This document shows positions 1,415 to 19,554 of a stretch of 19,554 nt of DNA, in pieces. Positions within the stretch are counted from its first letter, which is position 1; every line of letters starts with the position of its first letter. The notes under the pieces were generated by a model. That model searched no databases. It was not told where the DNA came from and worked only from the letters and a program-made list of their open reading frames with translations. Location of the stretch: positions 1-19,554 of the forward strand of contig JBCBUK010000030.1 in the NCBI GenBank assembly GCA_039818205.1, given 5' to 3'. Origin of the DNA: Verrucomicrobiota bacterium. GTDB lineage: Bacteria; Verrucomicrobiota; Verrucomicrobiia; Opitutales; Cerasicoccaceae. Both the position numbers and the translations under genes were made by a program.

Positions 1415-1429
1415 TTAAAAAAAAACTCG

Positions 1430-4085: not shown

Positions 4086-4092
4086 TAGGCAA

Positions 4093-4296
4093 TCAATCTC
4101 CGGTAATCATCATGCAAGCGATCGTCTTGCGATCGAATGTGCAACTTTCGGGTGAGACTTCTGCACGCAGTCGATTGAGACCGTCCGTGCCCTTTTCTTC
4201 AATAAGCTTCATCAGATACTCAAGTAGCTCTGTGTCGGTAGCTGCTGGCAGATCTTTCGTATTGAATTTCTTCCTTGGTAATCGTCGTTTAGGCAT
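4093..4296 (-). CDS. Hypothetical protein (67 aa)
   Basis: Fills the gap between the MTase and primase genes in operon orientation and ends 7 nt before the primase ATG. Confidence 0.6.
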   Translation of the reverse strand: MPKRRLPRKKFNTKDLPAATDTELLEYLMKLIEEKGTDGLNRLRAEVSPESCTFDRKTIACMMITGD

Positions 4297-4320
4297 ATGT
4301 TCACTCTAGTATAAAGGACT

Positions 4321-5190: not shown

Positions 5191-5371
5191 CATCCATATG
5201 ACATTGGGAACGCATCTTCTGCACTTCCTTAACAAGGTTTCGATTGGTGCCGCTAACTTTATACGCGAGCTTTCGCCAACGTACTAGATCATTAAGAATA
5301 ATCAGAAAGAAGATGATTAAAAAAACACCAGCTTCCCAGCTAACATATACGTTGATAAAGCTTTCCATCAT
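5183..5371 (-). CDS. Small membrane protein (62 aa)
   Basis: Hydrophobic stretch AGVFLIIFFLIILNDLV followed by basic residues; ATGA overlaps at both ends. Confidence 0.65.
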   Translation of the reverse strand: MMESFINVYVSWEAGVFLIIFFLIILNDLVRWRKLAYKVSGTNRNLVKEVQKMRSQCHMDDV

Positions 5372-5532
5372 TCGCCTTCATTAGCCATTTCGGCCATACA
5401 CTGCATCATTTTGAATGCAGCATATTGTGCTGGAGAAGTTGAATCTTCTGGCTTTAGTTCTGGTTCGAAGTTGGCATCCAAATTCACGGCACCATCTTCG
5501 GAATCTGTTAAGACTATTGTTACTTTTGGCAT
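5368..5532 (-). CDS. Hypothetical protein (54 aa, below the ORF-track cutoff)
   Basis: Manual translation MPKVTIVLTDSEDGAVNLDANFEPELKPEDSTSPAQYAAFKMMQCMAEMANEGE*. Its TGA overlaps the next ATG (ATGA, 5371-5368). Confidence 0.65.
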   Translation of the reverse strand: MPKVTIVLTDSEDGAVNLDANFEPELKPEDSTSPAQYAAFKMMQCMAEMANEGE

Positions 5533-5554
5533 TATTTCTTCTTAGGTTTGATAG

Positions 5555-6724
5555 TTAAGCAACCTCCTGCTTTGAAAGTTCCTGAATCACCGTGCGCTTG
5601 CTGGTGACCTTCATGCGGCCTCGTTGGAATGCACGATGCTCGCCAACGACGGCACACATCTCACGGGTGCGCGTAACTGCGGTATAGATTAATGAGCGGG
5701 TTAGCAACGCATGCTGATCACGACCAAGCGCAACGAACATCACGCGGCGATACTGCGAACCCTGTGACTTGTGAACAGTGAGCGCGTAGGCCAGTTTGAG
5801 ATTCTTGGCTTCATCCCTGGTCAAGTGAACGGTGCTCTCGTTTTCGTCCGTTGGCACATCCAGCTCAATATGCATATCGCCCTTCTGCCCGATCGCCTGA
5901 ACGGTTCCTGTCGTTCCGTTCCAAATATCTTTCTCGGCAACGTTCTTGGTGTTAATGACCCGATCGCCAACTTTTATTGAACCATCATCGGGATCACGCG
6001 GGTTCACGATTTCGGCAATATCCTCATTGAGCGATTTCACCGTGCAGGGCGCCGCCTCGCTGTCGCCGTTCTTTGGGCAAAGTATGATGTCCTGGTCGAA
6101 ATCAAATGCATCATCTTCGACCAGTTTTAGGATGTATTCATGGGTCTGCTTGGCGTCACCGGTTTCAGCAATGCACCAGCGCTCACCAGGAGATTGATCA
6201 AAGTTCATTAGCGACTCACCATTGCGAATTGCGGTTGCGGCTTTGAATACGGCCTCGCGATTGCGAAAGCACTTGGTCAAGTTATAGACCATGTTCGGCG
6301 CTTCGATAATAATATCATGAAACGGCTGGCCCTTGCCGACTGGCGGCAGCTGGGCTTCGTCGCCTACCAAGATCAGACGATCGGGTTTGCGCATGATGAT
6401 CGCGGCCATTAGCTCGCTGTCGACCATGGAGGCCTCATCCACGATCACCGTGGATCCGGCCAGAGTCGGATTCGTGAACTTTACGCCGTTGTAGCCAAGC
6501 AGGCGGTGAATGGTGGACGTTTCCCGGCCAGTGGCCTCCTTCAGGCGAGCCGCGGCCTTTCCAGCAAACGCGCAAAGGTGGACCGGTTTTTTCTCTTTGG
6601 CCAAGCGAGCAACCATTTCCTTAATGATGGTCGTTTTTCCAGTGCCGGCACCGCCTGTAATGATCGAAAAGCGATGACTGACGGCATGGTCAACCGCGGC
6701 TACTTGTGTTGGGTCAAGTTTCAT
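5555..6724 (-). CDS. recD2: RecD2-like SF1B helicase, motor (C-terminal) part
   Basis: Q motif LDPTQ, Walker A GGAGTGKTT, VIVDEASMVD, LVGDEAQLPPVG, LTKCFRN, AYALTVHKSQGSQY and LIYTAVTR. Confidence 0.9.
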   Translation of the reverse strand: MKLDPTQVAAVDHAVSHRFSIITGGAGTGKTTIIKEMVARLAKEKKPVHLCAFAGKAAARLKEATGRETSTIHRLLGYNGVKFTNPTLAGSTVIVDEASMVDSELMAAIIMRKPDRLILVGDEAQLPPVGKGQPFHDIIIEAPNMVYNLTKCFRNREAVFKAATAIRNGESLMNFDQSPGERWCIAETGDAKQTHEYILKLVEDDAFDFDQDIILCPKNGDSEAAPCTVKSLNEDIAEIVNPRDPDDGSIKVGDRVINTKNVAEKDIWNGTTGTVQAIGQKGDMHIELDVPTDENESTVHLTRDEAKNLKLAYALTVHKSQGSQYRRVMFVALGRDQHALLTRSLIYTAVTRTREMCAVVGEHRAFQRGRMKVTSKRTVIQELSKQEVA

Positions 6725-7128
6725 TATTTACTGCCGTCATAGATTAGTTCAAACGTTCCAAACCCATCCTTGAGCAAAAACTTCAGCTCATGCAGATCCA
6801 TCATACTCCCAAATTTAGGGTGCATATCGTTCTCGTCACACCACGTGTCAATTACTGTAGTGACTGCCGATTGTAGGGATTCTTCCTCTTCTTGCGTAAA
6901 GTACCAATCATCGGCAACCTCACCGTGCTCATCAGAAGAGTTGTTGATTAAGTATTCGGGGATGTCTGGCGCATAACTGGAAGCTTTGGAATACACGACT
7001 GTTCCGCCATAAACCGTCACGACATCACCGGCCTTGAGGTCACGGCGAGGAGCTTCCCATATCTCTTCTAGAACTTCATAAGGGTCATCGCTACGAAAGA
7101 TTTCATTATCACTGCTGTATTTTTTCAT
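6724..7128 (-). CDS. Hypothetical acidic protein (134 aa)
   Basis: In operon orientation; its stop overlaps the helicase start (TAATG). Confidence 0.7.
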   Translation of the reverse strand: MKKYSSDNEIFRSDDPYEVLEEIWEAPRRDLKAGDVVTVYGGTVVYSKASSYAPDIPEYLINNSSDEHGEVADDWYFTQEEEESLQSAVTTVIDTWCDENDMHPKFGSMMDLHELKFLLKDGFGTFELIYDGSK

Positions 7129-7146
7129 CGAACTTATTGGTTGAAG

Positions 7147-7452
7147 TTATTCGTCATCTAAGAGGTTGAGCTGTGGAGATTCCTTGCTCATCAGTTTTGG
7201 CGAGTGAGAGGTATGCCCCCAAAGTTTCAGGAACGCGCCAACCAGCGACCAAACGGATTGATGTTGCCGTTTGAACTGGCGGACATAGCCCTTGCGGCCA
7301 TCAGATCCAGTGTATTCGGCGTGAAGCGTGCCTCGATAATTGCCGATTTCGTCTGTGCCGGTTGAATCGTTAGCTATATCCATTGTAGCAATGGTTCTCT
7401 TTGCCGACTCAACGCCCTTGGGCACGAGTTCTACCGTGATTCTAATCATCAA
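7147..7452 (-). CDS. Hypothetical phage protein (101 aa)
   Basis: ATGA overlap with the RecD2 N-part stop; ends QLNLLDDE. Confidence 0.7.
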   Translation of the reverse strand: MMIRITVELVPKGVESAKRTIATMDIANDSTGTDEIGNYRGTLHAEYTGSDGRKGYVRQFKRQHQSVWSLVGAFLKLWGHTSHSPKLMSKESPQLNLLDDE

Positions 7453-8327
7453 AATGGGTCTCCAGTTAGAAAGTTCCAGATTTCGAGTTCGTTGCGAAAG
7501 TCGCTGGCGAGCGCTATACTCTGTGTTTGGGTAAACCCCTTGAGCGTGCCTTCCTCGAACATGGCACTCACCTGCTCGCCAATGAGTTTACCCATGCCGC
7601 CAAGTTGCTTGATTCCGGCCTCGAGCAGTTCAGACCAGGTGACCACCGTTGAACCACTACTGGTCATTTGGCGGATCACATAGACCAATGCGGCACGAAT
7701 GCGGCGCGGGTCATCATCGGCTATGCCATAGTAAAGGCGGATATCGGTATCCACGTGGCAGAAGCCATAGTTCGGCAACTCAGCAAGGCGGTAGGGATCA
7801 GCTCGCACAACACCAAGCGTTTCGGTTTCCCACTTCTGGAATGCCGCGGTTGCCATGTTCATGCTCGCGCCGGCCTTGAGAAGTTCGGCAATCACCTGCC
7901 CCTTGCCGCGGTCCTGTTCGACCAGTTCCATCGCTTTGCAAAAGCTCTCATACTTTGTGCCTTTGAGGCGCGGTATATCAGTGTCAGTGAGCTCTGACCA
8001 ACGCTCGCCTAGCTTCTCCCATATTTGGGTTTCCATGGCTGGGCCGATGCCGTTAGCCATCTCGCAAACGTAGTGAAGCAAGCCTCGTGAATCCGTTGGC
8101 ACATTCAGGGCTGCGGACGTAAACTTAAACTCGCGCCGGCCTTGGTATTGACCAAATCGACCGCGGAGAACTAGGCGCTCTTTGGCTCGAGGGCGCCAGT
8201 TCATGCTTCCCTTACAAGTGCCGTGGTCAGTATCAAGAATGAACCAGGTGGCATTCTCAACGGTGTCCGCTGGATAGCAGACGCGGTTCACGGTAACCGC
8301 TAAATCTTGAATCGGTTCAAGACTCAT
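7449..8327 (-). CDS. RecD2 N-terminal (OB/HhH) region as a standalone gene; start at 8327
   Basis: NGIGPAM HhH motif, DPYRLAELPNYGFCHVD and GIADDDPRRIRAALVYV...SGSTVVTWSEL match the RecD2/YrrC N-terminal pattern. RBS AAGGGGGA precedes ATG 8327. No P-loop. Confidence 0.82.
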   Translation of the reverse strand: MSLEPIQDLAVTVNRVCYPADTVENATWFILDTDHGTCKGSMNWRPRAKERLVLRGRFGQYQGRREFKFTSAALNVPTDSRGLLHYVCEMANGIGPAMETQIWEKLGERWSELTDTDIPRLKGTKYESFCKAMELVEQDRGKGQVIAELLKAGASMNMATAAFQKWETETLGVVRADPYRLAELPNYGFCHVDTDIRLYYGIADDDPRRIRAALVYVIRQMTSSGSTVVTWSELLEAGIKQLGGMGKLIGEQVSAMFEEGTLKGFTQTQSIALASDFRNELEIWNFLTGDPF

Positions 8328-9117
8328 TCTCGTCCCCCTTCCTGGCCGCGTCGATCGCTTTGCGTGCGTCGGCGGCGTGCTTTCCGCGAACCGCATTTCC
8401 GTTACCCCAGCATAGATACATCTTAGCTGGGTTAGCCGTCATAAAGTCCAGCCGCTCCTTGTCCGCCCTGAGCCTCTCGACCCGCTCGTCAGTCCGCAGT
8501 TTGCTCCGGGTTAGTCGGTCTACGGCTTCCTGGAGTTGCTCCTTGTCTTTGCGCAGCTCAAGTGCTCGCTCGATCGCTACGGTTAGTTCTTCAGGCTCGT
8601 TGCCAGTGAGGCGGGAAAGATCGCCGTCTAGAACCTGCTCTATTAGGCGCATACGGTTTGCCCATACGCGCCGCAGCTCATCGAGTTCTTCCAGTTCTTT
8701 ACGGTCAACGGTCCACTTTTTCTCATCGACCCGCATTAATGCTTCGATCGCAATACCATCGGCACGCTCATGATGTTGCCCAAGGCTCACTATTTCGCCA
8801 AGTGCGTCGATAAGCTCGGCGTTCTCTTTCTCTAGCTGCGAGACCTTCTCCCGCAGCTTCTTCACTATCTCATGCGCTTTGGCCTGGAACTGCCGCTCAG
8901 CACTTAAATCCGCTAGATTGCACCCGAAAACCGGCGATGACTCCTTTAGTTCAACGCCAACCGCTTTTAAATCTTCTATCAGTTCGTCATCGCTGGCGTT
9001 CTGCAAATACGCTTCCAGCTCGTCAAGCATCGGATCTACCTTCGTGTTCTTGCCACAACGCGGGCACGGCAAGGCGTCATCTGGGCAATTGCATTCTGTT
9101 CTCGGTGTGTTGCTCAT
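8317..9117 (-). CDS. Coiled-coil phage protein with N-terminal Cys cluster (266 aa; start at 9117 rather than 9321)
   Basis: MSNTPRTECNCPDDALPCPRCGK start is ATGA-coupled to the ERCC4 gene stop; long E/L/K/R-rich heptad region. Confidence 0.7.
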   Translation of the reverse strand: MSNTPRTECNCPDDALPCPRCGKNTKVDPMLDELEAYLQNASDDELIEDLKAVGVELKESSPVFGCNLADLSAERQFQAKAHEIVKKLREKVSQLEKENAELIDALGEIVSLGQHHERADGIAIEALMRVDEKKWTVDRKELEELDELRRVWANRMRLIEQVLDGDLSRLTGNEPEELTVAIERALELRKDKEQLQEAVDRLTRSKLRTDERVERLRADKERLDFMTANPAKMYLCWGNGNAVRGKHAADARKAIDAARKGDENES

Positions 9118-9581
9118 GGGTTCGTTGAAAGTTCTAGCCAGCGTTCGCGCAAAACGGATGTTGCTAATCCAGTAGCGAGCTCGGCGTTGTGGGCAAAAAG
9201 CACGGACACGCCGCGCATGGAAAGTTGAGCAATCCGCTTCATTACGAACTGCGGAGTCAATTGGTTGTGGCTGTGATCGGGTCCGATCATCGCGCCGCCC
9301 TGGGCTTCGCGGAAACAGCAATCACAGAAATCGCCTTCGACGATGATCACCTTGGCTGACCATTCGGCCATGCGGTTGATCTCTTTACAAAATACAGGCC
9401 ACCGTGTGGCAATGGTCCCGAGAAAATCATCCAATGACTTGCGCTCAATGGCGAACGAATCATCGCCATCAAGAGCATAGTCACCGGTTTTAAGGGTGCC
9501 GACACGGGCGCGAACGGCCCCCGGATCAAATGACCAGGGACGCTGTTCACGCGTGTCGATTATGACGTGCATCGGCTCCAT
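9114..9581 (-). CDS. ERCC4-domain (XPF/Mus81-like) nuclease
   Basis: IIDTREQ, LKTGDY, IERKSLDD (ERKxxxD) and IIVEG. Confidence 0.88.
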   Translation of the reverse strand: MEPMHVIIDTREQRPWSFDPGAVRARVGTLKTGDYALDGDDSFAIERKSLDDFLGTIATRWPVFCKEINRMAEWSAKVIIVEGDFCDCCFREAQGGAMIGPDHSHNQLTPQFVMKRIAQLSMRGVSVLFAHNAELATGLATSVLRERWLELSTNP

Positions 9582-9586
9582 TTGAT

Positions 9587-9988
9587 TTATGCAACGAGCT
9601 TGATTGCGTCTGCAATGGCATCCTCGCCATCATCGTACTTATCAAGATTCACTTGATCGATGATCTTCTGAGCCTTGCCATCGAGAGCATTATTTCGCGC
9701 TTCAATGCGCTTCTGTTCCGATTCAAACTCACTATTCGCCTCCCTGTATGACTTGGGAGGAGCAAATACCGATTCCAATGCCAGGCTTGGTCGGTATGTT
9801 CCATCGATCACTGCTTTCTCAGCTGATTCATTGATCTTTGCAGTTGGCAGCAGTTTTGCCTGACCACTGCAAATGGCACGCTTGATATGTTCTTCAAGGC
9901 TGGGCCGCTTGCATGAACATTCGATATGTTTCTTTCGAACCTCGTTATTGATTCGATCAATCGTGTAGTTCTTCTGTTGGCGATTCAT
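9587..9988 (-). CDS. Hypothetical protein (133 aa)
   Basis: AAAGGAA RBS upstream; in operon orientation. Confidence 0.7.
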   Translation of the reverse strand: MNRQQKNYTIDRINNEVRKKHIECSCKRPSLEEHIKRAICSGQAKLLPTAKINESAEKAVIDGTYRPSLALESVFAPPKSYREANSEFESEQKRIEARNNALDGKAQKIIDQVNLDKYDDGEDAIADAIKLVA

Positions 9989-10014
9989 TGTGTTCCTTTC
10001 TCGAGTTTCGGTTC

Positions 10015-10620
10015 TTAGGCGAATGGGTTAGGCACGCCGCCATTTCCAGCTGGCTGTGCTGGTTGCTGTGGCTGTGCTGGCTGTTGAGGTTGAGCCTGCT
10101 GCTGCGGGTATGCCATCTGAGCCGGTGCCTGTTGGGCTGGCTGTGCGGGTGCCATGGTTTGAGCCGGTGCAGATTGAACGGGTGCTGGAGCTGGTGCGGC
10201 ACCGCTCATCATTTGCATTCGACGCATAGCTTCGTTTTGGTCGATAGCGTTCACCGAATCATCGCTGCCGAGGTATTTGACATCGTAGTACATCTTACCA
10301 TTGTACTCGCGACCTTCGACCACCCCTTCGATCTCGATACCGACTAAGGCTTGCAATCGGGCGAGATCAAGGCCTTCACCGTCATAGCCAATCTTGCGCA
10401 GCGTCTCCATTGTGAGCTGGGTTTGCGTCTTGTGAGAGACATTGCCATTTCCGAATCGCTGACTGATCTCTCCAGACCAAAAGCCTTTCTGATTTGGGTC
10501 ATCGACACGATGCACACCAATTGCGATGTCGAATGCGTTAGGGTCATTCTTGTTGAACTTGGCTTCCGCTGGGAAAACCTCGGTGACCTTCAATTTGAAA
10601 CGTCCTTCTTCTTTGAACAT
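10015..10620 (-). CDS. Putative single-stranded DNA-binding protein (DUF669-like)
   Basis: Beta-rich N-terminal domain (REYNGKMYYDVKYL), Q/P/A-rich disordered tail ending VPNPFA, and a position after the annealing and exonuclease genes. Confidence 0.6.
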   Translation of the reverse strand: MFKEEGRFKLKVTEVFPAEAKFNKNDPNAFDIAIGVHRVDDPNQKGFWSGEISQRFGNGNVSHKTQTQLTMETLRKIGYDGEGLDLARLQALVGIEIEGVVEGREYNGKMYYDVKYLGSDDSVNAIDQNEAMRRMQMMSGAAPAPAPVQSAPAQTMAPAQPAQQAPAQMAYPQQQAQPQQPAQPQQPAQPAGNGGVPNPFA

Positions 10621-10650
10621 GATATTTAGTGTTTTAGTTTATTTTGATGA

Positions 10651-11313
10651 TTAGAATAGGATGCCTTGCATCCGTTCGAAAATGGCTAGCGTCAGTTCAC
10701 AATCGCGTTTGCAGTAGTCCTCAATTTCAGTGAGCTTGGCTTCGTCACCCGATTTGAGTGCGGGCAAGAACTCTTTGAAATCAATCTCGAGCTTGCCTTG
10801 GTCCTCGAACATGACCCGAGAAACATCATCCAACTTCTGGAACTGATTGTATCCCGCCCACAGGGCCATGAGATCGATATGAATCTTGCTGCCTCGTTTG
10901 GTGAACTGACTAAGAGCTGGAACATTCCAGGCTTCCGGACAAATCCCAAGAATCGCTGCCCGTTTGAAAATGAATGGCAGATCAAATCCATTCCCGTTCC
11001 AGCTCGTGAACGTCAGGGTATCACTATTGAACAGACCGAAGAAATGTTGGATAACAGTGGACTCGGCTTCATCGCTGTCTTCTTGGATACGTGAGCAAAA
11101 GCTTTTGCCATCATCCTTGGCGATACCTATACAGAACACGCGCCCATAGAGCGGATCCAGGCCCATGCTATCTTGTTGCTTTTGCTTGGCCTCGGCGCGC
11201 TTGGCTTCGATCTTGGCGGGGTCTTTCAGGTTGCCAAGCGCCACAGACGGCGCGGGCAAGCGATCAATCATCCGCTCATTGGGGATCGTCTCAATATCGA
11301 ATGCGATAATCAT
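10651..11313 (-). CDS. DnaQ/PolB-like 3'-5' exonuclease (DEDDy); start at 11313
   Basis: ExoI FDIETIP, ExoII WNGNGFDLPFI, ExoIII YCKRDC; ATGA overlap with the upstream gene. Confidence 0.88.
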   Translation of the reverse strand: MIIAFDIETIPNERMIDRLPAPSVALGNLKDPAKIEAKRAEAKQKQQDSMGLDPLYGRVFCIGIAKDDGKSFCSRIQEDSDEAESTVIQHFFGLFNSDTLTFTSWNGNGFDLPFIFKRAAILGICPEAWNVPALSQFTKRGSKIHIDLMALWAGYNQFQKLDDVSRVMFEDQGKLEIDFKEFLPALKSGDEAKLTEIEDYCKRDCELTLAIFERMQGILF

Positions 11314-12047
11314 GATACTGCGCACAAGGCTTTGTTGATTTTGCGTGCTTCTCGTCTATGAAGCTCTTCGTTGATGACGTTCTTGTATTCTTGGGCGATA
11401 GGCTGCTTCAGAGCCATTTTAAGCACGTTGCTAGGGTGTGTAGACCAAGGCTTGCCCCGCACCTCGTCATTCCCGATGGGACAAACCGAAAAATCGACTT
11501 CAACGGGCGTTGGCTTTGAAGTGGGCTCGGATTGATTGACCTGCAAGTTATCCTCGGCTTCATCCTCGCTATTTACCCCGCTTTTCACCTCGGGCATAAG
11601 CGCGTCAATGGTGTCCGAAAGCACTCGAGCCCAAAGCATCTTTTTCGGGTGATTGGCCCAGTTGTGAAGCAAGGTCTTGCCGTCCTTCTTAAAGCAGATC
11701 TTAGCTCGAACAGCATCCTCCATGGTGAATGCGAAAGTGCCCATACACTCGCCTTTTATAGATACCTCGATCGCAGCGCATGTATCACTGCGTTCGATGA
11801 TCTTGTAATGGCCACCTAGTTCACGAAATCGCGCTGCCATGACATTGGTTTTCATGCTCGGGCCATTCGGCAAGAAGTGATATCGTGAATGTAGTTCGGC
11901 TAGTGAAAGACCTTCACCGTAAGCCATCCAGGCAATTACCGCACCAGCTTCAGCGCTTCTAATATTGTCGCCAAACATCCCTGACGCAGCGATCTGACGA
12001 CCGATCTCGAGCGCGTCTTGTGGTGAACTGATTCTAAGATTATTCAT
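11310..12047 (-). CDS. RecT/Bet-like single-strand annealing protein; probable start 12047
   Basis: IAASGMF, FTMEDAVRAK and NWANHPKKMLWARVLSDTIDALMPEVKSGVNSEDE match the RecT/Bet-like W..xP..ML.AR..S......P....G....E pattern. Confidence 0.72.
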   Translation of the reverse strand: MNNLRISSPQDALEIGRQIAASGMFGDNIRSAEAGAVIAWMAYGEGLSLAELHSRYHFLPNGPSMKTNVMAARFRELGGHYKIIERSDTCAAIEVSIKGECMGTFAFTMEDAVRAKICFKKDGKTLLHNWANHPKKMLWARVLSDTIDALMPEVKSGVNSEDEAEDNLQVNQSEPTSKPTPVEVDFSVCPIGNDEVRGKPWSTHPSNVLKMALKQPIAQEYKNVINEELHRREARKINKALCAVS

Positions 12048-12249
12048 TCCAAATCCCATCTTCGTGTTCCTGTTTTAAGGCGTTGAGATTACGTCGTATG
12101 TAGTCGGCTACGGGACAACGTTTGTCCTGTGATTTCCCGTCATTCCAAAGCCAATGAAAGTAGCGGGCAGGGACATCCTGCATCGGAGTACCCTTGTGCT
12201 TTCCAAAAGGCATCGGGTCAGTGTCCTGTAGCGCACTATTAGGCGTCAT
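12040..12249 (-). CDS. DUF3820-like small protein
   Basis: MPFGKHKGTPMQDVPARYFHWL signature. Confidence 0.8.
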   Translation of the reverse strand: MTPNSALQDTDPMPFGKHKGTPMQDVPARYFHWLWNDGKSQDKRCPVADYIRRNLNALKQEHEDGIWNE

Positions 12250-12703
12250 TGCGTTTCACCTCCCCTAGCCCAACCAAATAGTCGATGACCTCGCCTCGAA
12301 AATCGGCATCCAGCTCAATATTCCGTAACACGGCAGTCCTGATCACCTCAAGACCAACCAATTTACGTAATTCTCCCAGAGTTCCGCTGTCACAGAATTC
12401 CTCAACATGGTCATCGAAAATCAATGAGAATATATCATTTCTGAAATCCCATTCAGTCATCGCATTTCCTATTGCACTTAGAGGAACCGACTCCACAACT
12501 CTCTGCTGTTGGTCAAGATCAAGCTCGTTGACCTCAGCAATGATGTCATCCAAATCGAGTACTTTGTCTTCAACACCTTGCTTCTCAGCAATTATTTCAA
12601 AGGCATCGGCATCCAGATACAACCCCACCTCACGGCAAAGTGATTGGTCACTATTTAGTTCATCGGCGATAGCGACGCCGTTCTTCATGGTTTCGGTAGG
12701 CAT
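12239..12703 (-). CDS. Hypothetical acidic protein (154 aa)
   Basis: Starts 6 nt after the dnaN stop and overlaps the next gene. Confidence 0.7.
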   Translation of the reverse strand: MPTETMKNGVAIADELNSDQSLCREVGLYLDADAFEIIAEKQGVEDKVLDLDDIIAEVNELDLDQQQRVVESVPLSAIGNAMTEWDFRNDIFSLIFDDHVEEFCDSGTLGELRKLVGLEVIRTAVLRNIELDADFRGEVIDYLVGLGEVKRNDA

Positions 12704-12709
12704 GATGGT

Positions 12710-13798
12710 TTACTGTTTGCGAACCGGCATGATGATAAACAGGCCATTCGCGGTTTTGATTTCGAGTGCGTTCAGTTCATCGCGAAACACGATGGTAACG
12801 GCTTCGTCGTTGACCGACCCGAGGGCGGCCAAGAAATACTCAATGTTTAAGTTAATATAGCGGTCTTGGATGTCGCATTTGACTTCGATCTGGTCTTTCG
12901 CCTCACGACCTTCGGCGGCAATGGACAGTTCAAGAACACCGGGATTAAAGCGCATGAGCGCAGCCCGGTCATTGTCACTGGCTGCAACCAGCAAGCGCTG
13001 GAGCCCAAGAATTAGGCGCTTTCGATTGACCTCAACAGGCTCGCCAACAGCGGTTGGAATGACCTGTCTCCAGTTCGGATATCGGGTATCGTGAATCGCT
13101 GAATTCATCTCAGTGCCATTAGGCAAAGCGAATTTTACGCGGCGCTCATCTAACCAGATTGTAATCTCGCTTTCAGAATCACACCGGCAACGAACAAGCT
13201 CGTTAACCACATTGTATGGTAGCGTAACGTTCGCGTCCACCGCCGACGTTTCTCCAAGATTCGTGATCGTCGCACAATGGCCATTAGTGGAAATAACTGT
13301 AATGGAGCCATCGCGAACTTCTAGATTTATGCCGTCAAGCGGTGGACGTTCACCAGGCTTGCGCATTGACCACTTAGCGGATTTCAAAGCGTCAAAGAAC
13401 TGCTGTGCATTCAACAGTAGAGGCTCACCTGCATTGGGAAGAACCGTTGCACCTGGAAATTCACCAGCGTTGAATGTTGGAAGGCCGAATTTTGATTTGC
13501 TGGCTGTAACTGACGCCCTTGATTTACTGACATTGATACAGATATCGGCGTCCGTTAGATTTGCGATCCGCAGCAAGGCCGCATGTGATAAAGCGACACT
13601 GCCAGCCTTCTGAACCTTGGCAGCGACGGTAGCGATCAACTCCATTTCGCTGTTGGTAGTTCGCATCGAAAGATTGCCATCGCTCTTGGCATCAATCAGC
13701 ACGGTCGAAAGAATCGGCAGCGAGGAGTTCGCTTTGACGGATCCACCCACCGCATTCAGTATGTTAATCAGTGCATCTTTGGTTATCGTGATCTTCAT
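12710..13798 (-). CDS. dnaN: DNA polymerase III beta sliding clamp (phage-encoded)
   Basis: 362 aa; LPILSTVLI, GEFP, RPPLDGI, STNGH (cf. ATDGH), RYPNWRQVIP, NIEYFLAAL and C-terminal IIMPVR. Confidence 0.93.
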   Translation of the reverse strand: MKITITKDALINILNAVGGSVKANSSLPILSTVLIDAKSDGNLSMRTTNSEMELIATVAAKVQKAGSVALSHAALLRIANLTDADICINVSKSRASVTASKSKFGLPTFNAGEFPGATVLPNAGEPLLLNAQQFFDALKSAKWSMRKPGERPPLDGINLEVRDGSITVISTNGHCATITNLGETSAVDANVTLPYNVVNELVRCRCDSESEITIWLDERRVKFALPNGTEMNSAIHDTRYPNWRQVIPTAVGEPVEVNRKRLILGLQRLLVAASDNDRAALMRFNPGVLELSIAAEGREAKDQIEVKCDIQDRYINLNIEYFLAALGSVNDEAVTIVFRDELNALEIKTANGLFIIMPVRKQ

Positions 13799-13823
13799 TG
13801 CTCGAGATTGTTAGTTGATCAAC

Positions 13824-14099
13824 TCAGGCGCCCTCGCCCAACCTTCGGTAGAGTTCATCACGAACCGCGTTGGCGGCGTCATCCAGCGCAACCGTGTTCG
13901 GATCGAGTGGATTGCTGTGCCCATGGCCAAGTTCACAGTGGGCCTCGACCAGGAAGAATGTTAGCTTCTCGGTGCTGTCATCGAGGCTGACGTTCAGGTC
14001 ATGGCGGACAGGTACACGTGATGTGTATGTGTAAAGTGGTTGCGCTAGCTTTTTGGTAGGAGCCTTGCGCGTCGTAGTTCGTTTCTTTGCAGCTGCCAT
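13824..14099 (-). CDS. Hypothetical protein (91 aa, basic N-terminus)
   Basis: In operon orientation, tightly packed with neighbours. Confidence 0.65.
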   Translation of the reverse strand: MAAAKKRTTTRKAPTKKLAQPLYTYTSRVPVRHDLNVSLDDSTEKLTFFLVEAHCELGHGHSNPLDPNTVALDDAANAVRDELYRRLGEGA

Positions 14100-14104
14100 G
14101 GCGA

Positions 14105-14299
14105 TTACTTCGCTAGTAGTTCGAGAGCTGCACGTTTGGCCTTACGCCAACCGTTAATCTTCTGATAGCGACGATAGGCAACTCCCTTTCGGTCTGTTAC
14201 CGTTTTGACGTGCAAGATTTCGTCTTGGTACTCTGACGGATTTTGCCGCACCAAATCACTCGCTAGGTGACGGACTTGCTTTGCTTTACGACCATTCAT
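14105..14299 (-). CDS. Hypothetical basic protein (64 aa)
   Basis: MNGRKAKQVR... with an A/C-rich leader; operon context. Confidence 0.65.
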   Translation of the reverse strand: MNGRKAKQVRHLASDLVRQNPSEYQDEILHVKTVTDRKGVAYRRYQKINGWRKAKRAALELLAK

Positions 14300-14376
14300 G
14301 ATTGTTTTGGTTGATTTTTAAAGAATGAGGGACGGCCACCCCTGAGCCGCCGGGATTGCTCCCCTAGCCTCTTGTG

Positions 14377-14688
14377 TCAGTAGGCTGCTTTGAGCCCCTT
14401 GAAATAGTCCTTTATTGATTGTCGTGAAATGATCACTGGAACACCGATGACCTTGCCCGGTACGCGCTTTATAAGCCCACGATTGACCATCTCCATGCAC
14501 TTGCGCTCGGTGATGCATTCGGGTTCGCCAAATGGAACACCTGAAATGATCTCACATGCGATTTTGAGAGGCACACCTTCTGACTCCTCTCGAATCGATT
14601 TATCAACTTCTAGTTGTTCGACTCTATCAAGCAGTCCGCCAAGTTTAGGTGCCAACTTAACAAGTGTTTCCAATGCTCCTTCGCTCAT
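14377..14688 (-). CDS. Excisionase/MerR-like winged-HTH DNA-binding protein
   Basis: N-terminal coiled coil, then VPLKIACEII...ITERKCMEMVNRGLIKR...VIISRQSIKDYF, the Xis/HTH_17 pattern; GAGG RBS. Confidence 0.6.
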   Translation of the reverse strand: MSEGALETLVKLAPKLGGLLDRVEQLEVDKSIREESEGVPLKIACEIISGVPFGEPECITERKCMEMVNRGLIKRVPGKVIGVPVIISRQSIKDYFKGLKAAY

Positions 14689-14780
14689 ATCATTTGCCTC
14701 GATTGTGGGGCTGACGCCGGTTCGTCGACGCCAGCCCGCTGCTGCTACTACTACGATACTACTGGTTAAGTTCCCGGCAG

Positions 14781-15101
14781 TTAGGCCGGAAGTTTTTGGG
14801 CTTCAGCAAGCTTAGCCATTTCAATGGCGATCAAGCTTGCTTCCTGTCGGTTGAACTCGATTTCGATGTCGTTCTCGACACGCTCGAGCATCTGCCGCTC
14901 CTCGGTTGAAATATATCCAACCTCCAGGCGCTTGTTCAATAGATCCAAAAGATCCTCGAGTATGCGACAACCCACGGGTCGCACACTGATGACCTTCGTT
15001 TCCCGTCTGTCGCCATTGACAATCAGTTGCCAATGGATTTCGGCGTCATAAAATGTCGAACCACTTGGGACGAGAATGATGGAATAAATATTGGTTATCA
15101 T
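14781..15101 (-). CDS. Hypothetical protein (106 aa)
   Basis: Operon orientation and spacing. Confidence 0.65.
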   Translation of the reverse strand: MITNIYSIILVPSGSTFYDAEIHWQLIVNGDRRETKVISVRPVGCRILEDLLDLLNKRLEVGYISTEERQMLERVENDIEIEFNRQEASLIAIEMAKLAEAQKLPA

Positions 15102-15122
15102 GGTAGGGATTGGTTGTTACGT

Positions 15123-15383
15123 TTATGCGGCATCAAGAAGGGCGCTCGCAGGAACCAAGGTCGCTTTCAGCGAATCAATGTGAGCTTGCCACTCTCGAAC
15201 GGCTTGGGCTTCGCGGCGTATGGAATAAGCCATGGCCTCATCATCGGCCCCATAAAGACCATTCACTTTTGCCTCATAGCGTCTCGCTACGGTGTCCAAA
15301 TGGTTGGCATAGTCCCCTAGATCGACTAGGCCAATGCGCTCCATAGTGCCGCGAATAGCTAGTTTTTGCTCTAGGGTCAGCAT
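15123..15383 (-). CDS. Hypothetical protein (86 aa)
   Basis: AAGGAGG RBS upstream of ATG 15383. Confidence 0.7.
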   Translation of the reverse strand: MLTLEQKLAIRGTMERIGLVDLGDYANHLDTVARRYEAKVNGLYGADDEAMAYSIRREAQAVREWQAHIDSLKATLVPASALLDAA

Positions 15384-15385
15384 GG

Positions 15386-15604
15386 CTAATTGGCCTCCTT
15401 GATGGTTGCTTGATTGCTTCCGGGCTCGCCATCCACAGATGGCGGTAAAGCTGTTTCGCGGTCTCCAAACAGCGGGCAGTCTTCGATGTATGATTCAATC
15501 TGATCAAGTTCAGCTAACGCTGCGCCGTTGCTTTGGTTGTGGCTACGTGAGGCCTTCAGTACTTGTCGGATTGCCTTACGCGTTGTTTTGCTAGTCTTAG
15601 TCAT
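15386..15604 (-). CDS. First gene of the lytic operon (Cro position), function unknown
   Basis: ATG at 15604 (TTG 15610 is an alternative); basic N-terminal helix but no clear HTH. Confidence 0.6.
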   Translation of the reverse strand: MTKTSKTTRKAIRQVLKASRSHNQSNGAALAELDQIESYIEDCPLFGDRETALPPSVDGEPGSNQATIKEAN

Positions 15605-15702
15605 TTCCAAATATCGATTATTTATCGACTTTGGATTATTTATCTATCAGTCGTCAACAACTAAAATTGACTTTTTATCCATTTTAGATCAAAACACTGA
15701 TC
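15605..15702. promoter_or_regulatory. Divergent lysis/lysogeny switch: back-to-back promoters and candidate operators
   Basis: Quasi-palindromic GATTATTTATC occurs twice (15616-15626, 15634-15644). Leftward -35 TTGACG (15657-15652) and rightward -35 TTGACT (15667-15672); the -10 boxes are weak. Confidence 0.65.
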
Positions 15703-16986
15703 ATGAACCAATTCGGACCCACACTTGAAGGCCTTATCGCATCCGGAGAAATGACAAAGAAATCACTGGCAGAGAAGGCCGAGATTGATCCCACTACCTT
15801 GACAAGGATATGCCAAGGCAAGTTGGACCCGACCCCCAAGGTCTTGCGTGCACTCTGCGAAAATGTAAATCAAAACCCAGCTGTGAGCGCTTCCTTAGTG
15901 ATTGCCCGAATGGAAGATATCATTGAAAGCTCTGGATTAAGCGCATCTCTGTTTCACGTTTCGCAAGCAAATGAGAATCCAACGAATTTTGACGGCGTCC
16001 CCCCTGCAATCTTAAAAGTTGCATCTCAGCTCGCACAGCTTTCCACCAAAAATGTCGAATTCTTTGAGCTAATGAAAGCAAGCGTGGCCCTTGCGGACAC
16101 GACAGAAGAACCTGACATCGACGATGAAATCGAAGTTGAGGTCAACGAGCCAATCCAAATGACCAAGCCCGAACAATGGCATACGCTTCCCTGCTATGGT
16201 GTAGCTGCCGGCTCTCCAATTTCTGGCGATGAGTTTGATGCTGAGTTCAAATTTGATTACAGCAAAGATCATTTCGCTGTAAAAGTATTCGGCAACAGCA
16301 TGGAACCAATGATTGATGATGGCCAAATCGTGATCGTTCGAACTCTCGAATCTCTTAACAACCCTAACGTCAAAAAAGGCGAAATTTACTGCTTCCAAGT
16401 GAAGGGAGAACGCACACTCAAACGCTACAACACCCGACCCGCAACACAGGAAGAAATTGATACTGGCCTGAGTTACACATCCCCAAGGGGTACTCAGCGC
16501 GTTAAGATATTGGAATCGATCAATCCAGATTACCCTGAAATAGTCCTTCGCGAAGGTGATGAGATGCTTGGATGGTATGACCCTGTAAATCAACCGAACT
16601 CAAATAAAATTGAGTCAAGATCCCAGTCGCCAATGCTTGGTGATCCCCTTCCTGCGCCTAAGGGACCACCATCACCATATGAAGGATGGATTTTACCAGG
16701 CGAATCGATCGAAACATTTAATATTCGTTTTCGGAAAGAATGGGAGAACAAGCATTTTGAACTGGCAAGTGTGATTGCAGTTCATCCGAGTTTCGTAAAA
16801 CGGGAACTCGAATCGAACATGCCTATAAATCAGGAAATGCTGAGAAACCCTAGTCAATGGGCTCGTCATGAAGGGAAAGAGCACATACCTGGATTTGGCC
16901 TGAAACGCTGGACATTGTTTAGAGAGTCAGTGGAATCTGCCGAGAATGAGGCCGAAACAAAAAGCGCTCAAGCACGACGTGCTTAA
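15703..16986 (+). CDS. CI/LexA-like repressor (XRE HTH + S24 autopeptidase) with an extra C-terminal domain
   Basis: HTH MTKKSLAEKAEIDPTTLTRICQGKLDP; Ala-Gly cleavage site VAAGSP; catalytic Ser GNSMEP and Lys TLKR; ESINPDY; then about 130 further residues. Confidence 0.9.
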   Translation: MNQFGPTLEGLIASGEMTKKSLAEKAEIDPTTLTRICQGKLDPTPKVLRALCENVNQNPAVSASLVIARMEDIIESSGLSASLFHVSQANENPTNFDGVPPAILKVASQLAQLSTKNVEFFELMKASVALADTTEEPDIDDEIEVEVNEPIQMTKPEQWHTLPCYGVAAGSPISGDEFDAEFKFDYSKDHFAVKVFGNSMEPMIDDGQIVIVRTLESLNNPNVKKGEIYCFQVKGERTLKRYNTRPATQEEIDTGLSYTSPRGTQRVKILESINPDYPEIVLREGDEMLGWYDPVNQPNSNKIESRSQSPMLGDPLPAPKGPPSPYEGWILPGESIETFNIRFRKEWENKHFELASVIAVHPSFVKRELESNMPINQEMLRNPSQWARHEGKEHIPGFGLKRWTLFRESVESAENEAETKSAQARRA

Positions 16987-17015
16987 ACGCTTGAAAAGAA
17001 TATATTCAATAGTTC

Positions 17016-17189
17016 CTATTTCTTTGGATCCTCTGGCTTGCCTTCATTGTCTGGATTTGGGTCACGCACTTCACAAGGGAATGTTCCCCATCCTGCTGTA
17101 GTTACTGGTCCGAGGCCGGAACCGTTGTCGAATATTCCGGCGTTGTATTTGGCGGTTGCGATTAGGGGTATCAGGTATTTTCTTATCAT
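17016..17189 (-). CDS. Unannotated 57-aa peptide downstream of the sensor kinase
   Basis: Manual translation MIRKYLIPLIATAKYNAGIFDNGSGLGPVTTAGWGTFPCEVRDPNPDNEGKPEDPKK*. The ATG is 13 nt after the kinase stop, behind an A/C-rich leader like those of other genes here, and the ORF fills the kinase-repressor gap. Confidence 0.55.
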   Translation of the reverse strand: MIRKYLIPLIATAKYNAGIFDNGSGLGPVTTAGWGTFPCEVRDPNPDNEGKPEDPKK

Positions 17190-17202
17190 TGTGCTTTGGG
17201 TG

Positions 17203-19149
17203 TTAGATGTTGGTTCTGTTTTCGTTCACCGTCATTTGGTCTGGTGGTGCGAAAGGTATTGTTAACACAAAAACAGCGCCCTGATTCTCGTTTTGCACAT
17301 ATCTAAGTTTGCCTCCCATACTCTCTGCCATTAATCGACTCACGTATAGACCAATTCCTGATCCTCCTTTGGCAAGTCGATAAAACTTCTGGAATATTTT
17401 CTCTTCATAGCCTTCAGGAACTCCAATTCCATTATCTTCAACAGCAATTTGAAGTTCGATTATTCCATCTGCTCTAACATGTGTTTTGGGGACTACACGC
17501 ACTACGGCGCTAGCATGTCCTTCAGTTGAGTGTTTCAGCGCGTTAGCAATCAAATTGAACATTATACGCTCCAACATGGCTTGATCGCCATACAAGCCAG
17601 TGACTTCAACGTTTTCAAATCCTTCGAAATCCCAAGTATAATCTATTTTATTCTCCAAAACTTGGGCTCGAAAACACTCAAGCATACGTGAAGAAAATGG
17701 AATCAAATCAAATATTTCGGGCTCTAAATCAATAGTACCTGCCTCAAGATCATCCAGCTGAAAAGCACCTTGAAAATTTACGTCAATTTTTCTGAAGATC
17801 AATTTCAAGGCAGCTAATGAAGCTTGCGCTTGTAGGCTGATATTTTTGTCTTTTGAGGCCGCTTTGATATGATTGAGGCCAGAGAATACCAAATTCTTAT
17901 ATCCGTGAACAGCGACGCGAAGATTTGCGGTGCCTGCTTTTTGCGCTACCGTAGAAGTTTTCTCGCTTTCAACTACTTTCGATTCCAATCTAGCAACTTC
18001 ATTAGCATGTTGTATTCTTTCTGCTTTCAGCTTTTTGATGATTGGCTGTCTGTATATGTTCATTAATGCGAAAACAATCACTCCCGCAAAGATCACATAT
18101 TGAGTAATCATAATCGGGCTTCGCCAAAAAGGTACACTTGCTGGAACAATTTTTGCCGAATACTGAATTGGATAACTGATTGATCCATTGCTGTTTCGTG
18201 CTTGAAATTCCAATATGTCGCCGTTCGAAATTTCCTTAATTTCTATAACAGGAACATCCGCGAAATTTGACCAACTAGAACCAGATAGCCTCCAGCGATA
18301 GTCGATATTTCCGAATATACCTTCAGGACTAGATAGCGAAAAATTGATCTGAGAGAAAGGTTCCTGAATTCCTTTAGTAATGATTTCACTATCGCTCTTT
18401 ACACTACTAATCACAGGTGAGGCCGCTCGCATCGGATCTTCGAAGTACTTGGCAAGCAGCACATCTTTTCCCGAAATCATTACTTTACCCTCCGAGACAT
18501 TCACAACCAAATCAGTTGGAATATCAAACAATCGAAGGTTTGGTACCAAATACTCTTTCTCCCGAAGCTTACGCCCAAATTTCTCTAGTCGCTTTAGCCT
18601 GTAATGGCCTTCATCACCATCAGGAAATAGAACCCAAAGCGCTGACTCTCCCTCTTTATAAGTAACGATTCGGTAACCATCCTGCCCCAAGTCATCTCCA
18701 AGGTTATCTCGATGATAGAATACATTTTTATCATCATTATACGAAAATATTCCCTCATTGCTAATCACGTATAATTGCCCATCGAGAGTGACAACATGAG
18801 CCCAAGACACCTTATCAGGGCTGCTACCAAATTGATTCCATCTATCGATGTCAATGTACTGCAAATCCTCGGCAGTTGGATCAAGCGTCGAAACACGAAA
18901 CAGACCCCGATCAATTGTTCCTACCCAAATAGTATTCTCATCCTCAATTGCAACGGATGTAGCTTGATTCCAATCGACCGCGAGCGGTTCGCTCAAAATA
19001 ATTGATTCACCTTCTCCAACAATCAACCGAATACTGTTACTGCCAGATACGATTCTGTTACCGCCAAAGAAAGGGAAAATTTTATTCAGAAAATATGTAT
19101 CCACAAGTTTGGTTACATCCTGTTCTCTAAAGAAATATATACCATCCAA
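17203..19149 (-). CDS. Sensor histidine kinase, C-terminal fragment (propeller blades, Y_Y_Y, TM, HisKA-like, HATPase_c)
   Basis: IWVGTIDRGLF blades; DYRWRLSG...FQARNSNG (Y_Y_Y); PFWRS + TM helix; divergent H-box AVHGYKNLV; N-box NLIANALKH; G1 VEDNGIG; F-box IFQKFYR; G2 GSGIGL. Confidence 0.88.
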   Translation of the reverse strand: MDGIYFFREQDVTKLVDTYFLNKIFPFFGGNRIVSGSNSIRLIVGEGESIILSEPLAVDWNQATSVAIEDENTIWVGTIDRGLFRVSTLDPTAEDLQYIDIDRWNQFGSSPDKVSWAHVVTLDGQLYVISNEGIFSYNDDKNVFYHRDNLGDDLGQDGYRIVTYKEGESALWVLFPDGDEGHYRLKRLEKFGRKLREKEYLVPNLRLFDIPTDLVVNVSEGKVMISGKDVLLAKYFEDPMRAASPVISSVKSDSEIITKGIQEPFSQINFSLSSPEGIFGNIDYRWRLSGSSWSNFADVPVIEIKEISNGDILEFQARNSNGSISYPIQYSAKIVPASVPFWRSPIMITQYVIFAGVIVFALMNIYRQPIIKKLKAERIQHANEVARLESKVVESEKTSTVAQKAGTANLRVAVHGYKNLVFSGLNHIKAASKDKNISLQAQASLAALKLIFRKIDVNFQGAFQLDDLEAGTIDLEPEIFDLIPFSSRMLECFRAQVLENKIDYTWDFEGFENVEVTGLYGDQAMLERIMFNLIANALKHSTEGHASAVVRVVPKTHVRADGIIELQIAVEDNGIGVPEGYEEKIFQKFYRLAKGGSGIGLYVSRLMAESMGGKLRYVQNENQGAVFVLTIPFAPPDQMTVNENRTNI

Positions 19150-19196
19150 TCTTAGAACTGTAAAACCGCCATCTTCCGGTATAACCTGAGTCGACG

Positions 19197-19318
19197 GCGT
19201 ATCGACTTAGAGGTGCATCGATTTGATCGATCAGAAGGAATCAAAGATGTGCGAGCGCTAGTGAAGCATAATGATTCCTTCTGATCGATCAAATCGATGC
19301 ACCTCTAAGTCGATACGC
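19197..19318. repeat. Perfect 47-bp inverted repeat with 28-nt spacer interrupting the kinase gene
   Basis: 19197-19243 (GCGTATCGACTTAGAGGTGCATCGATTTGATCGATCAGAAGGAATCA) is the exact reverse complement of 19272-19318. Confidence 0.97.
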
Positions 19319-19554
19319 GCCAATCCTCCAGGGTATGACGCCCACAAATAGCGTCCATCAAAACGACAGCTAAATATAGTTGCTGATGGCACTAGGTTCG
19401 ACCAGTCGAATTCGACCTTTCCATGTTTATTGGCTATTAGAAGGCCTCTCCCCTTTGTCGACAACGCTACCAAACCATTTCCTATATAGGTGGCATCCAT
19501 AATCAAAATATCATCAATTGCACCAAGTCTAGAAAACTGACTATCCGAGATCTC
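19258..19554 (-). pseudogene. Upstream fragment of the same sensor kinase (open to the right edge, truncated in the IR spacer)
   Basis: The frame is open from 19554 (EISDSQFSRLGAIDDILIMDATY...) with propeller-like LVALSTKGRGLLI and YLWASYPGGLARI. It is in the same frame as 17203..19149 (offset 357 nt). Confidence 0.75.

What the first reader, a model, noticed from the sequence alone, without database searches (positions are those of the whole stretch)
17016..19554. Sensor kinase plus small peptide cassette converging on the phage repressor: candidate phage-borne peptide signalling system
Seen: a membrane histidine kinase with a large extracellular propeller/Y_Y_Y sensor is followed 13 nt later by an unannotated 57-aa ORF. 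The peptide has a basic/hydrophobic N-terminus, a Gly-rich core (GSGLGPVTTAGWGTFPC, single Cys) and a charged Pro-rich tail (DPNPDNEGKPEDPKK). It stops 29 nt from the repressor stop codon, and the cassette is visibly more AT-rich than the lytic operon. Known: AgrD-type autoinducer precursors have a leader/core/charged-tail layout and are sensed by a histidine kinase; arbitrium controls lysis-lysogeny with a peptide but uses a cytoplasmic RRNPP receptor; the region next to cI commonly holds lysogen-expressed accessory genes. Inference: this may be a peptide-receptor pair, or a kinase with a small regulatory partner, feeding an extracellular signal into the lysogeny decision or host regulation. 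Caveats: no response regulator, AgrB-like protease or exporter is in the window, the peptide is not a sequence match to AgrD, the kinase is disrupted in this sequence, and it could be a host gene at the prophage edge.
Basis: partly seen in the sequence, partly recalled or inferred. Interest (0 to 1): 0.72.

Follow-up and report, generated by a model that had tools for sequence, protein, structure and literature searches.

The report
Prophage peptide–kinase module beside its repressor
A prophage of a marine verrucomicrobium carries its own version of a host peptide gene and a matching membrane sensor kinase right beside its repressor, and the repressor has an extra domain seen only next to such modules, so these phages may use a host-type peptide signal to choose between dormancy and killing, though no binding or induction has been tested.

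Summary
The 57-aa ORF is under purifying selection (dN/dS about 0.3 against a paralogue). It belongs to a peptide family whose host copy lies between a hybrid sensor kinase and a stand-alone YcaO-like enzyme. YcaO homologues occur in 68 of 401 genomes of the order. Five prophage loci of this genome have kinase, peptide and converging repressor. The three complete ones add an upstream receiver protein and lie between integrase and repressor, so this is phage cargo. The break in the kinase is most likely a fold-back assembly artefact. It is not AgrD-like: no AgrB is present, and the tail is not conserved. All five cassette-adjacent repressors share a ~110-aa C-terminal domain despite different DNA-binding domains; three repressors lacking it have no cassette. 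This window's kinase lacks the acidic residue after the phospho-histidine and may act as a phosphatase. Best reading: host-matured peptide, phage kinase, receiver, then repressor domain, tuning lysis–lysogeny (0.45). No binding, expression or induction was shown. Only one genome holds the full cassette in my searches. The scan noted this system earlier on other DNA of this genome (e1-7816424).

The parts
17203..19554 (-). Membrane sensor histidine kinase, 5' end cut by the contig end (about 220 aa missing by comparison with the C29 paralogue). Propeller/Y_Y_Y-type sensor, one membrane helix near aa 345-365 of the 648-aa ORF, His415 with motif HGYKN (no acidic residue after His), intact N, G1, F, G2 boxes
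19197..19318 (.). Perfect 47-nt inverted repeat with 28-nt loop that puts three stops in the kinase frame; most likely a fold-back misassembly
17016..17189 (-). 57-aa precursor-like peptide: leader with YNxG motif, core ending F-P-C-E-V, then a 16-aa Pro/charged tail shared in kind only with the C33 paralogue
16962..16992 (-). Terminator-like hairpin (14 pairs, T run) for the cassette transcript, lying in the last codons of the repressor gene; hairpins at the same place in C33, C13, C1
   Evidence: the number of such sites in the region, 4, is not above shuffles, 2.6 +/- 1.7
15703..16986 (+). CI-like repressor: XRE-type HTH, Peptidase_S24 domain with Ala-Gly site, Ser and Lys motifs in place, and an extra C-terminal domain
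16630..16986 (+). About 110-aa helical C-terminal domain of the repressor, shared by all five cassette-adjacent regulators; no Pfam family, no significant fold match

Best explanation
A prophage-borne signalling module captured from a host peptide system and wired to the immunity region. Shown: the operon order receiver - kinase - peptide, tail-to-tail with the repressor; the peptide belongs to the family encoded between the host's hybrid kinase and its YcaO-like gene; the repressor's extra domain travels with the cassette. Inferred: (1) the cassette is transcribed in the lysogen; (2) the host YcaO recognises the shared leader and modifies the Cys of the conserved hydrophobic-Pro-Cys/Ser/Thr motif, as the phage has no enzyme of its own; (3) the matured peptide reaches the periplasm of neighbours, perhaps through the TonB-dependent receptor of the host locus, and binds the phage kinase; (4) the kinase sets the phosphorylation of the single-domain receiver, which has no DNA-binding part and acts on the repressor's C-terminal domain; (5) repression is tuned by lysogen or host density, on top of SOS cleavage through the S24 domain. 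This window's kinase and its C33 sister lack the acidic residue after the histidine and may work mainly as phosphatases, whereas the C13, C29 and C1 kinases keep it.
For: Five phage loci with kinase-peptide-repressor in one genome, kinases only 20-44% identical in the sensor. Peptide dN/dS 0.29 (C30/C33), 0.07 (C13/host), 0.24 (C13/C1); third codon positions differ most, 0.65 against 0.43 and 0.34. Host locus: 26 of 28 YcaO loci with enough flank have a divergent sensor kinase (6 of them built the profile); 24 of 26 distinct candidate precursors carry hydrophobic-Pro-C/S/T in the last 25 residues, shuffles mean 4.7, max 12; the window peptide has F-P-C at the aligned place. Only one YcaO-like gene in the genome. 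Receivers keep the acidic pair, phospho-Asp, Ser and Lys. C-terminal domain: in 5 of 5 cassette-adjacent regulators, fused to three different N-terminal layouts, 19-38% identical to the window's; absent from three repressor-like genes without a cassette (C22 into C23, C42, C45). A 660-nt block holding kinase end, peptide and this domain is 87% identical between C13 and C29 while other matched parts are about 70%. Sister phage C28 has the window's N-terminal layout but the C13/C29 form of the domain. A phage-type kinase from an outside contig (P0003) has as best non-self hits the YcaO-adjacent kinases in 8 of the top 9 and 9 of 15 places.
Against: All full cassettes come from one genome; the domain was found in 1 of 401 genomes and no cassette in viral or metagenome scans. 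The five loci are kin and linked, so co-occurrence may be inheritance of one block. The C13/C29 peptide is 79% identical to the host's while their sensors are 16-18% identical to the host sensor, which fits a peptide aimed at the host kinase as well as a private pair. The joint clade of host and phage sensors has weak support (76, quick tree, long branches). The window peptide lacks the Arg after YNxG that 11 of 12 family members have, and its leader is not significantly amphipathic (p 0.32). No exporter or protease is identified. The window's own receiver is not on the contig. The host YcaO scores below the Pfam cut-off (23.2 of 25.7 bits).
Confidence: 0.45

Rival explanations
1. Lysogenic conversion aimed at the host: the phage peptide is an agonist or antagonist of the host's hybrid kinase, and phage kinase plus receiver drain or feed phosphate in the host circuit (receiver-LuxR regulator of the host locus). 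The repressor is only a neighbour.
For: No DNA-binding regulator in the cassette. C13/C29 peptides and about 25 nt upstream match the host gene closely, 80% DNA over 159 nt, while sensors do not. phiCDHM1 likewise lacks AgrA and is proposed to signal to the host (PMC3901668, PMC7790227). The His motif of the window kinase fits a phosphatase (PMC3510030).
Against: Does not explain why an in-frame repressor domain accompanies the cassette in 5 of 5 cases across three repressor layouts and is missing in three without it. The window peptide ends its core in PCEV, like two other genomes of the genus, not like this host's PCGF.
Confidence: 0.27
2. The peptide is not released: it stays in the cell or membrane as a small modulator of the kinase or a ligand of the repressor's C-terminal domain, and the kinase senses something else (envelope stress, superinfection).
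For: No enzyme, exporter or signal peptide in the cassette; best 11-residue hydropathy only 1.2. Peptide and repressor domain moved as one block.
Against: Phage peptides keep both the leader and the Pro-C/S/T motif of the YcaO-linked host family; the host family sits beside a periplasmic sensor and often a TonB receptor.
Confidence: 0.15
3. The host product is an antimicrobial or metal-binding RiPP rather than a signal, and the phage cassette senses it as a competitor or nutrient cue.
For: YcaO enzymes and TonB receptors also serve microcins and metallophores (recalled, not tested); TonB receptor at the host locus.
Against: No exporter or immunity gene seen at the six host loci read; the core varies between species; the phage would not need its own peptide gene merely to sense.
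Confidence: 0.08
4. Decaying passenger DNA picked up from a host, without function in the phage.
For: Kinase appears broken in this assembly; atypical His motif; low GC.
Against: Break is probably an artefact; peptide under purifying selection; three paralogous kinases are full-length open frames of 1009-1030 aa; the phage kinases group apart from host kinases.
Confidence: 0.04

Closest known systems
agrD/agrB/agrC cassette of Clostridioides difficile phage phiCDHM1 (PMC3901668, passages read; PMC7790227, first third read)
   Same: Temperate phage carries a peptide precursor and a histidine kinase taken from a host peptide system, without a DNA-binding response regulator; lower GC than other modules.
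   Different: Here no AgrB; the peptide is of a YcaO-linked family; the kinase has a large propeller-type sensor (the phage AgrC has no identified receptor domain); a single-domain receiver is present; Gram-negative host; cassette abuts the repressor, which has an extra domain.
Arbitrium (AimP/AimR/AimX) of Bacillus phages (PMC7790227)
   Same: Phage-encoded peptide and receptor next to the lysis-lysogeny switch, in several specificity types.
   Different: Arbitrium uses a cytoplasmic RRNPP receptor and an imported linear peptide; here a membrane kinase, a receiver and a host modifying enzyme. No shared protein family.
Phage eavesdropping on host quorum signals (as introduced in PMC7790227; the VqmA-Qtip details are recalled)
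   Same: Phage encodes a homologue of the host's receptor and may read a host-type signal.
   Different: Signal here is a ribosomal peptide that the phage also encodes; receptor is a kinase, not a transcription factor.
Host kinase-peptide-YcaO locus of this verrucomicrobial order (unpublished as far as searched; scan notes e1-8292989, e1-8292983)
   Same: Same peptide family, related sensor.
   Different: Host: kinase divergent from peptide, hybrid with receiver, YcaO downstream. Phage: kinase and peptide in one direction, separate receiver upstream, no YcaO.

Membership tests
Agr (AgrBDCA) | AgrB processing enzyme | tested here: not met
   PF04647: 0 matches in the 99.97% complete genome; the control set held no match over the cut-off either, so the search had no positive control
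Agr (AgrBDCA) | AgrD layout with conserved charged follower after a Cys core | tested here: not met
   Tail present in 2 of 7 copies in the genome; 1-18 residues after the motif in host peptides; Cys replaced by Ser/Thr in many; no Pfam hit
Agr (AgrBDCA) | Multi-pass AgrC-type sensor and LytTR regulator AgrA | tested here: not met
   One membrane helix before the kinase core and a soluble propeller-type sensor; receiver is single-domain, 124-136 aa
Arbitrium / RRNPP | Cytoplasmic TPR receptor adjacent to the propeptide | tested here: not met
   Adjacent genes are a membrane kinase and a CI-like repressor; no TPR family in either
YcaO-modified RiPP | YcaO enzyme linked to the precursor | tested here: met
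   Host copy only: weak PF02624 (E 5e-5, under cut-off), Atlas neighbours 0.95-0.97 in YcaO clusters, adjacent to the peptide in the loci; not linked in the phage
YcaO-modified RiPP | Leader plus conserved modifiable Cys/Ser/Thr core | tested here: met
   YNxG invariant in 12 of 12; hydrophobic-Pro-C/S/T in 24 of 26 host candidates against shuffle mean 4.7
YcaO-modified RiPP | Chemical modification and leader removal | not testable with these tools
   Needs mass spectrometry; no TfuA partner in the genome (control positive)
HisKA two-component kinase | Phospho-accepting His and ATP-binding boxes | tested here: met
   His invariant in 11 of 11 aligned kinases; N, G1, F, G2 present
HisKA two-component kinase | Acidic residue next to His, needed for autokinase activity (PMC3510030, abstract) | tested here: not met
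   Gly in the window and C33 kinases, Glu in the 10 others; Asn at +4 in the window, the residue that paper ties to phosphatase activity; no HisKA Pfam hit for the phage kinases
CI/LexA-type phage repressor | HTH plus S24 autocleavage domain | tested here: met
   HTH_3 and Peptidase_S24 over cut-off, phrog_4, cleavage and catalytic motifs located
XRE/Cro helix-turn-helix (repressor C-terminal domain) | Significant sequence or fold match | tested here: inconclusive
   Model pLDDT 85.6; Foldseek E above 1, many top rows XRE proteins; best Z 3.7; Atlas 0.83, a lead only

The most novel reading that the evidence does not exclude
Temperate phages of Verrucomicrobiota have repeatedly captured type-specific copies of a host YcaO-matured peptide signal and read it through their own membrane kinase and receiver, which acts directly on a new domain fused to the phage repressor; kinase-type and phosphatase-type versions would let co-resident prophages answer different peptides, or in opposite directions. 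This would be a peptide-based lysis-lysogeny circuit in a Gram-negative host that runs by phosphorelay.
Probability: 0.3. Interest if true: 0.92.

Novelty: new variant of a known kind. Interest (0 to 1): 0.76.

Why it matters
Peptide control of lysis-lysogeny is known from Firmicutes with cytoplasmic receptors, and the one phage-borne peptide-kinase set I found in print (phiCDHM1) has no known output. This cassette offers all testable parts in a Gram-negative marine lineage: short peptides of several types, a candidate maturing enzyme, cognate sensors, a receiver, and a repressor domain of no known family as candidate target. Several prophages with different peptide types share one host genome, which makes cross-talk and competition between co-resident phages directly testable. 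It also points to an undescribed function for stand-alone YcaO enzymes.

Tried and rejected
Searches for the cassette outside this genome found none with context. Viral contigs: window kinase, peptide alignment, C13 kinase, P0003, C-terminal domain, two degenerate DNA patterns (72: 2 matches, both inside tail-region genes of unrelated phages and rejected as chance; 73: 0). Metagenome contigs: peptide alignment (67, 173 pattern hits, none confirmed, but confirmation used the window peptide, which does not detect the 39-aa type) and one pattern (74, 0). GenBank phages: only generic kinase-core matches, none for the domain. Protein database: only self for kinase sensor, peptide and domain (32, 33, 54; single queries, length-limited). 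These tools may leave out records near the window's genome. In one search four weak peptide hits (G112, G180, G313, G002:C1; E 0.002-0.008, short or with stops) were dropped. No RNA holder listed, so expression is untested. Rfam: nothing in the window. No solved structure matched YcaO or the sensor by sequence. The C-terminal domain is not like the host LuxR HTH (127) and has no significant fold match. Promoter scan not above chance. A fold of the window kinase had not finished at submission and is not used. The careful tree did not finish; the quick tree is quoted. Depth differences were not interpreted. Literature searches without a description of this system: (listings and abstract starts only; subscription journals are mostly missing). 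bioRxiv supplements were not consulted and could hold lists of phage-borne kinases.
Full report
Setting. The window is the whole of contig C30 of a 4.85-Mb, 66-contig genome, rated 99.97% complete. Positions 527-15610 hold an early phage operon (exonucleases, primase, methyltransferase, RecD2-like helicase, sliding clamp), and 15703-16986 a CI-like repressor. The one named genome record returned with the host locus described below is Cerasicoccus maritimus (60% identity), and the Atlas neighbours are Verrucomicrobiota, so the host is inferred to be a Gram-negative verrucomicrobium.

The observation. Spacing is as stated: 13 nt from kinase to peptide, 29 nt from peptide to repressor. The kinase is 41% GC against 51% for the early operon; the peptide gene (48%) and the other phage kinases (47-50%) are not AT-rich. 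Three stops interrupt the kinase frame, all inside a perfect 47-nt inverted repeat. Of three public runs laid on 15000-19554, one covers it; one of its contigs (depth about 10) passes the loop in the other orientation and then leaves the window for 69 other letters, and that path has no stop as far as the window letters go. Of 9 such perfect hairpins in the genome, 8 lie within 500 nt of a contig end. I read the break as a fold-back misassembly. That run may be the source of the assembly, so it is a second assembly and not a second occurrence.

The peptide is a real gene. The window peptide alone finds a 57-aa paralogue on C33 (E 2e-13). A profile of six copies finds seven places at E below 1e-20 and nothing else below 0.6; only C54 was outside the model. 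In 400 other genomes of the order it finds strong matches in 5 (4 of 5 of the genus, one of the family). dN/dS is 0.29 for C30/C33 and below 1 in five of the six further pairs tried (0.07-0.53; the sixth was saturated), and third codon positions differ most.

The host system. On C3 the peptide lies head-to-head with a 1311-aa hybrid kinase (Reg_prop, Y_Y_Y, HisKA, HATPase_c, receiver) and upstream of a 306-aa YcaO-like gene, followed by a TonB-dependent receptor and a receiver-LuxR regulator. This is the only YcaO-like gene found in the genome; there is no TfuA and no AgrB. Homologues occur in 68 of 401 genomes. Of the 30 best loci, 28 had enough flank and 26 of these have the divergent sensor kinase. 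I picked one small ORF by eye in 27 of the 28; 24 of 26 distinct ones carry hydrophobic-Pro-Cys/Ser/Thr near the end, against a mean of 4.7 in shuffles, and 1-18 residues follow it. The window's F-P-C is that motif, and its tail is within the range of the family, so it is not an AgrD-type follower. The window core ends PCEV like two other genomes of the genus, whereas this host's ends PCGF.

The phage cassettes. C30, C33, C13, C29 and C1 all have kinase, peptide and a converging regulator. C13, C29 and C1 are complete: a single-domain receiver with its catalytic residues precedes a kinase of about 1010-1030 aa, and an integrase lies further out; on C13 the order is tRNA-Pro, integrase, one accessory gene, cassette, repressor, early genes. 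So the cassette is inside the prophage. Contig C44 holds tRNA-Ala, integrase, two small genes, a receiver and a kinase start; its receiver GC (0.416) is like the window kinase (0.414) and unlike C33 (0.479), so it is the likely 5' part of this cassette, by inference only. In a quick tree of 57 sensor regions (45 generic ones chosen from 144) the five phage sensors and P0003 form one group (95), the host sensors another (100), and their union is weak (76); long branches meet. P0003 comes from a 9.6-kb contig outside this assembly whose context I could not see. Its best non-self matches in the order are the YcaO-adjacent kinases in 8 of the top 9 and 9 of 15 places, with two candidates scored per genome, which supports descent from the peptide-linked kinase.

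A repressor domain that travels with the cassette. The last ~110 residues of the repressor are shared by all five adjacent regulators, although these are HTH+S24 (C30), a short N-terminal domain+S24 (C13) or short ribbon-helix-helix-like proteins (C29, C33, C1; Pfam support only for C29 and weakly C33). The profile finds six places in this genome, the sixth cut by the end of C28, and none in 400 other genomes. Three repressor-like genes without the domain (C22 continuing into C23, C42, C45) have no kinase beside them; this list is not exhaustive. C13 and C29 share an 87% identical 660-nt block of kinase end, peptide and domain, with about 70% in the other matched pieces. C28, a sister of the window phage (74-81% DNA over the early operon), has the C13/C29 form of the domain (93% over 103 nt to C29). 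The domain folds with confidence into six helices (pLDDT 85.6) but matches nothing significantly; weak rows lean to XRE-type helix-turn-helix proteins. A terminator-like hairpin for the cassette lies inside the domain's last codons in four loci examined, a second reason for the two to stay linked.

Kinase or phosphatase. The residue after the histidine is Gly in C30 and C33 and Glu in the ten other kinases aligned; the window has Asn at +4. By the rule in the abstract of PMC3510030 the acidic residue is needed for kinase and Thr/Asn for phosphatase activity, so this copy may be phosphatase-biased, while C13, C29 and C1 lack Thr/Asn at +4. This is an extrapolation to divergent sequences that Pfam does not call HisKA.

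Mechanism. Most likely (0.45): host YcaO matures the phage peptide, the phage kinase senses it, the receiver relays to the repressor domain, and induction is tuned. Every step after gene order and conservation is inferred. The main rival (0.27) sends the output to the host circuit: the C13/C29 peptide is 79% identical to the host's while the sensors are 16-18% identical. No binding model could be made, and there are no RNA data.

Known systems. phiCDHM1 carries agrD, agrB and agrC without a regulator (PMC3901668, abstract and passages; PMC7790227, first third), and arbitrium uses a cytoplasmic receptor (PMC7790227). A 2026 review of phage communication mentions histidine kinases once, for Rap-Phr (PMC13389391, one passage). 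Searches listed no paper on this system. It fails the Agr and RRNPP membership tests but may work like them. Earlier notes of this scan describe the host locus and a cassette on other DNA of this genome; I had found both before reading them and re-tested most claims. The repressor domain, the His motif, the hairpin artefact and the C44 link are not in the lines shown to me.

Verdict. Real, phage-borne, selected, and not in print as far as searched; limited by one genome and no functional test. Interest 0.76; new variant of a known kind.

Noticed in passing
window 4321-5235 and 4344-5186 (-): Two overlapping reading frames of 304 and 280 aa both hit phage DNA methyltransferase families (phrog_363, phrog_1008).
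   Followed up: no
window 7449-8396 and 5555-6724 (-): A RecD2-like helicase appears split into an HHH part and a helicase part with two small genes between.
   Followed up: no
L014:6280-6470; L016:9783-9973; G000:C29:9726-9841: A conserved non-coding stretch (83-93% identity, 117-192 nt) upstream of the receiver gene in three cassettes, beginning with a GC hairpin; no Rfam match. Not seen on C44.
   Followed up: partly
L018 (G000:C54): A second host-type peptide and kinase start, 86% DNA identity to C3 but with another core; either a second locus or DNA of a related strain in the assembly.
   Followed up: partly
L015:11976-12040: Hammerhead type II ribozyme above the Rfam cut-off, between an ArdC-like gene and the integrase of the C29 prophage.
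   Followed up: no
L042:8823-8960: In G008 a second peptide copy lies beside a TonB receptor and LuxR-type regulator, away from the kinase-peptide-YcaO locus.
   Followed up: no
L017:8956-9360; L037:12629-13066; L039:4012-4410: A 130-145-aa gene of no Pfam family lies tail-to-tail with the host kinase in three genomes of the genus.
   Followed up: no
G000:C16:13079-14107: A cluster of seven tRNA genes in about 1 kb, possibly phage-borne.
   Followed up: no
window 12040-12249 (-): 69-aa ORF with QSregVF_b domain in the early operon.
   Followed up: no
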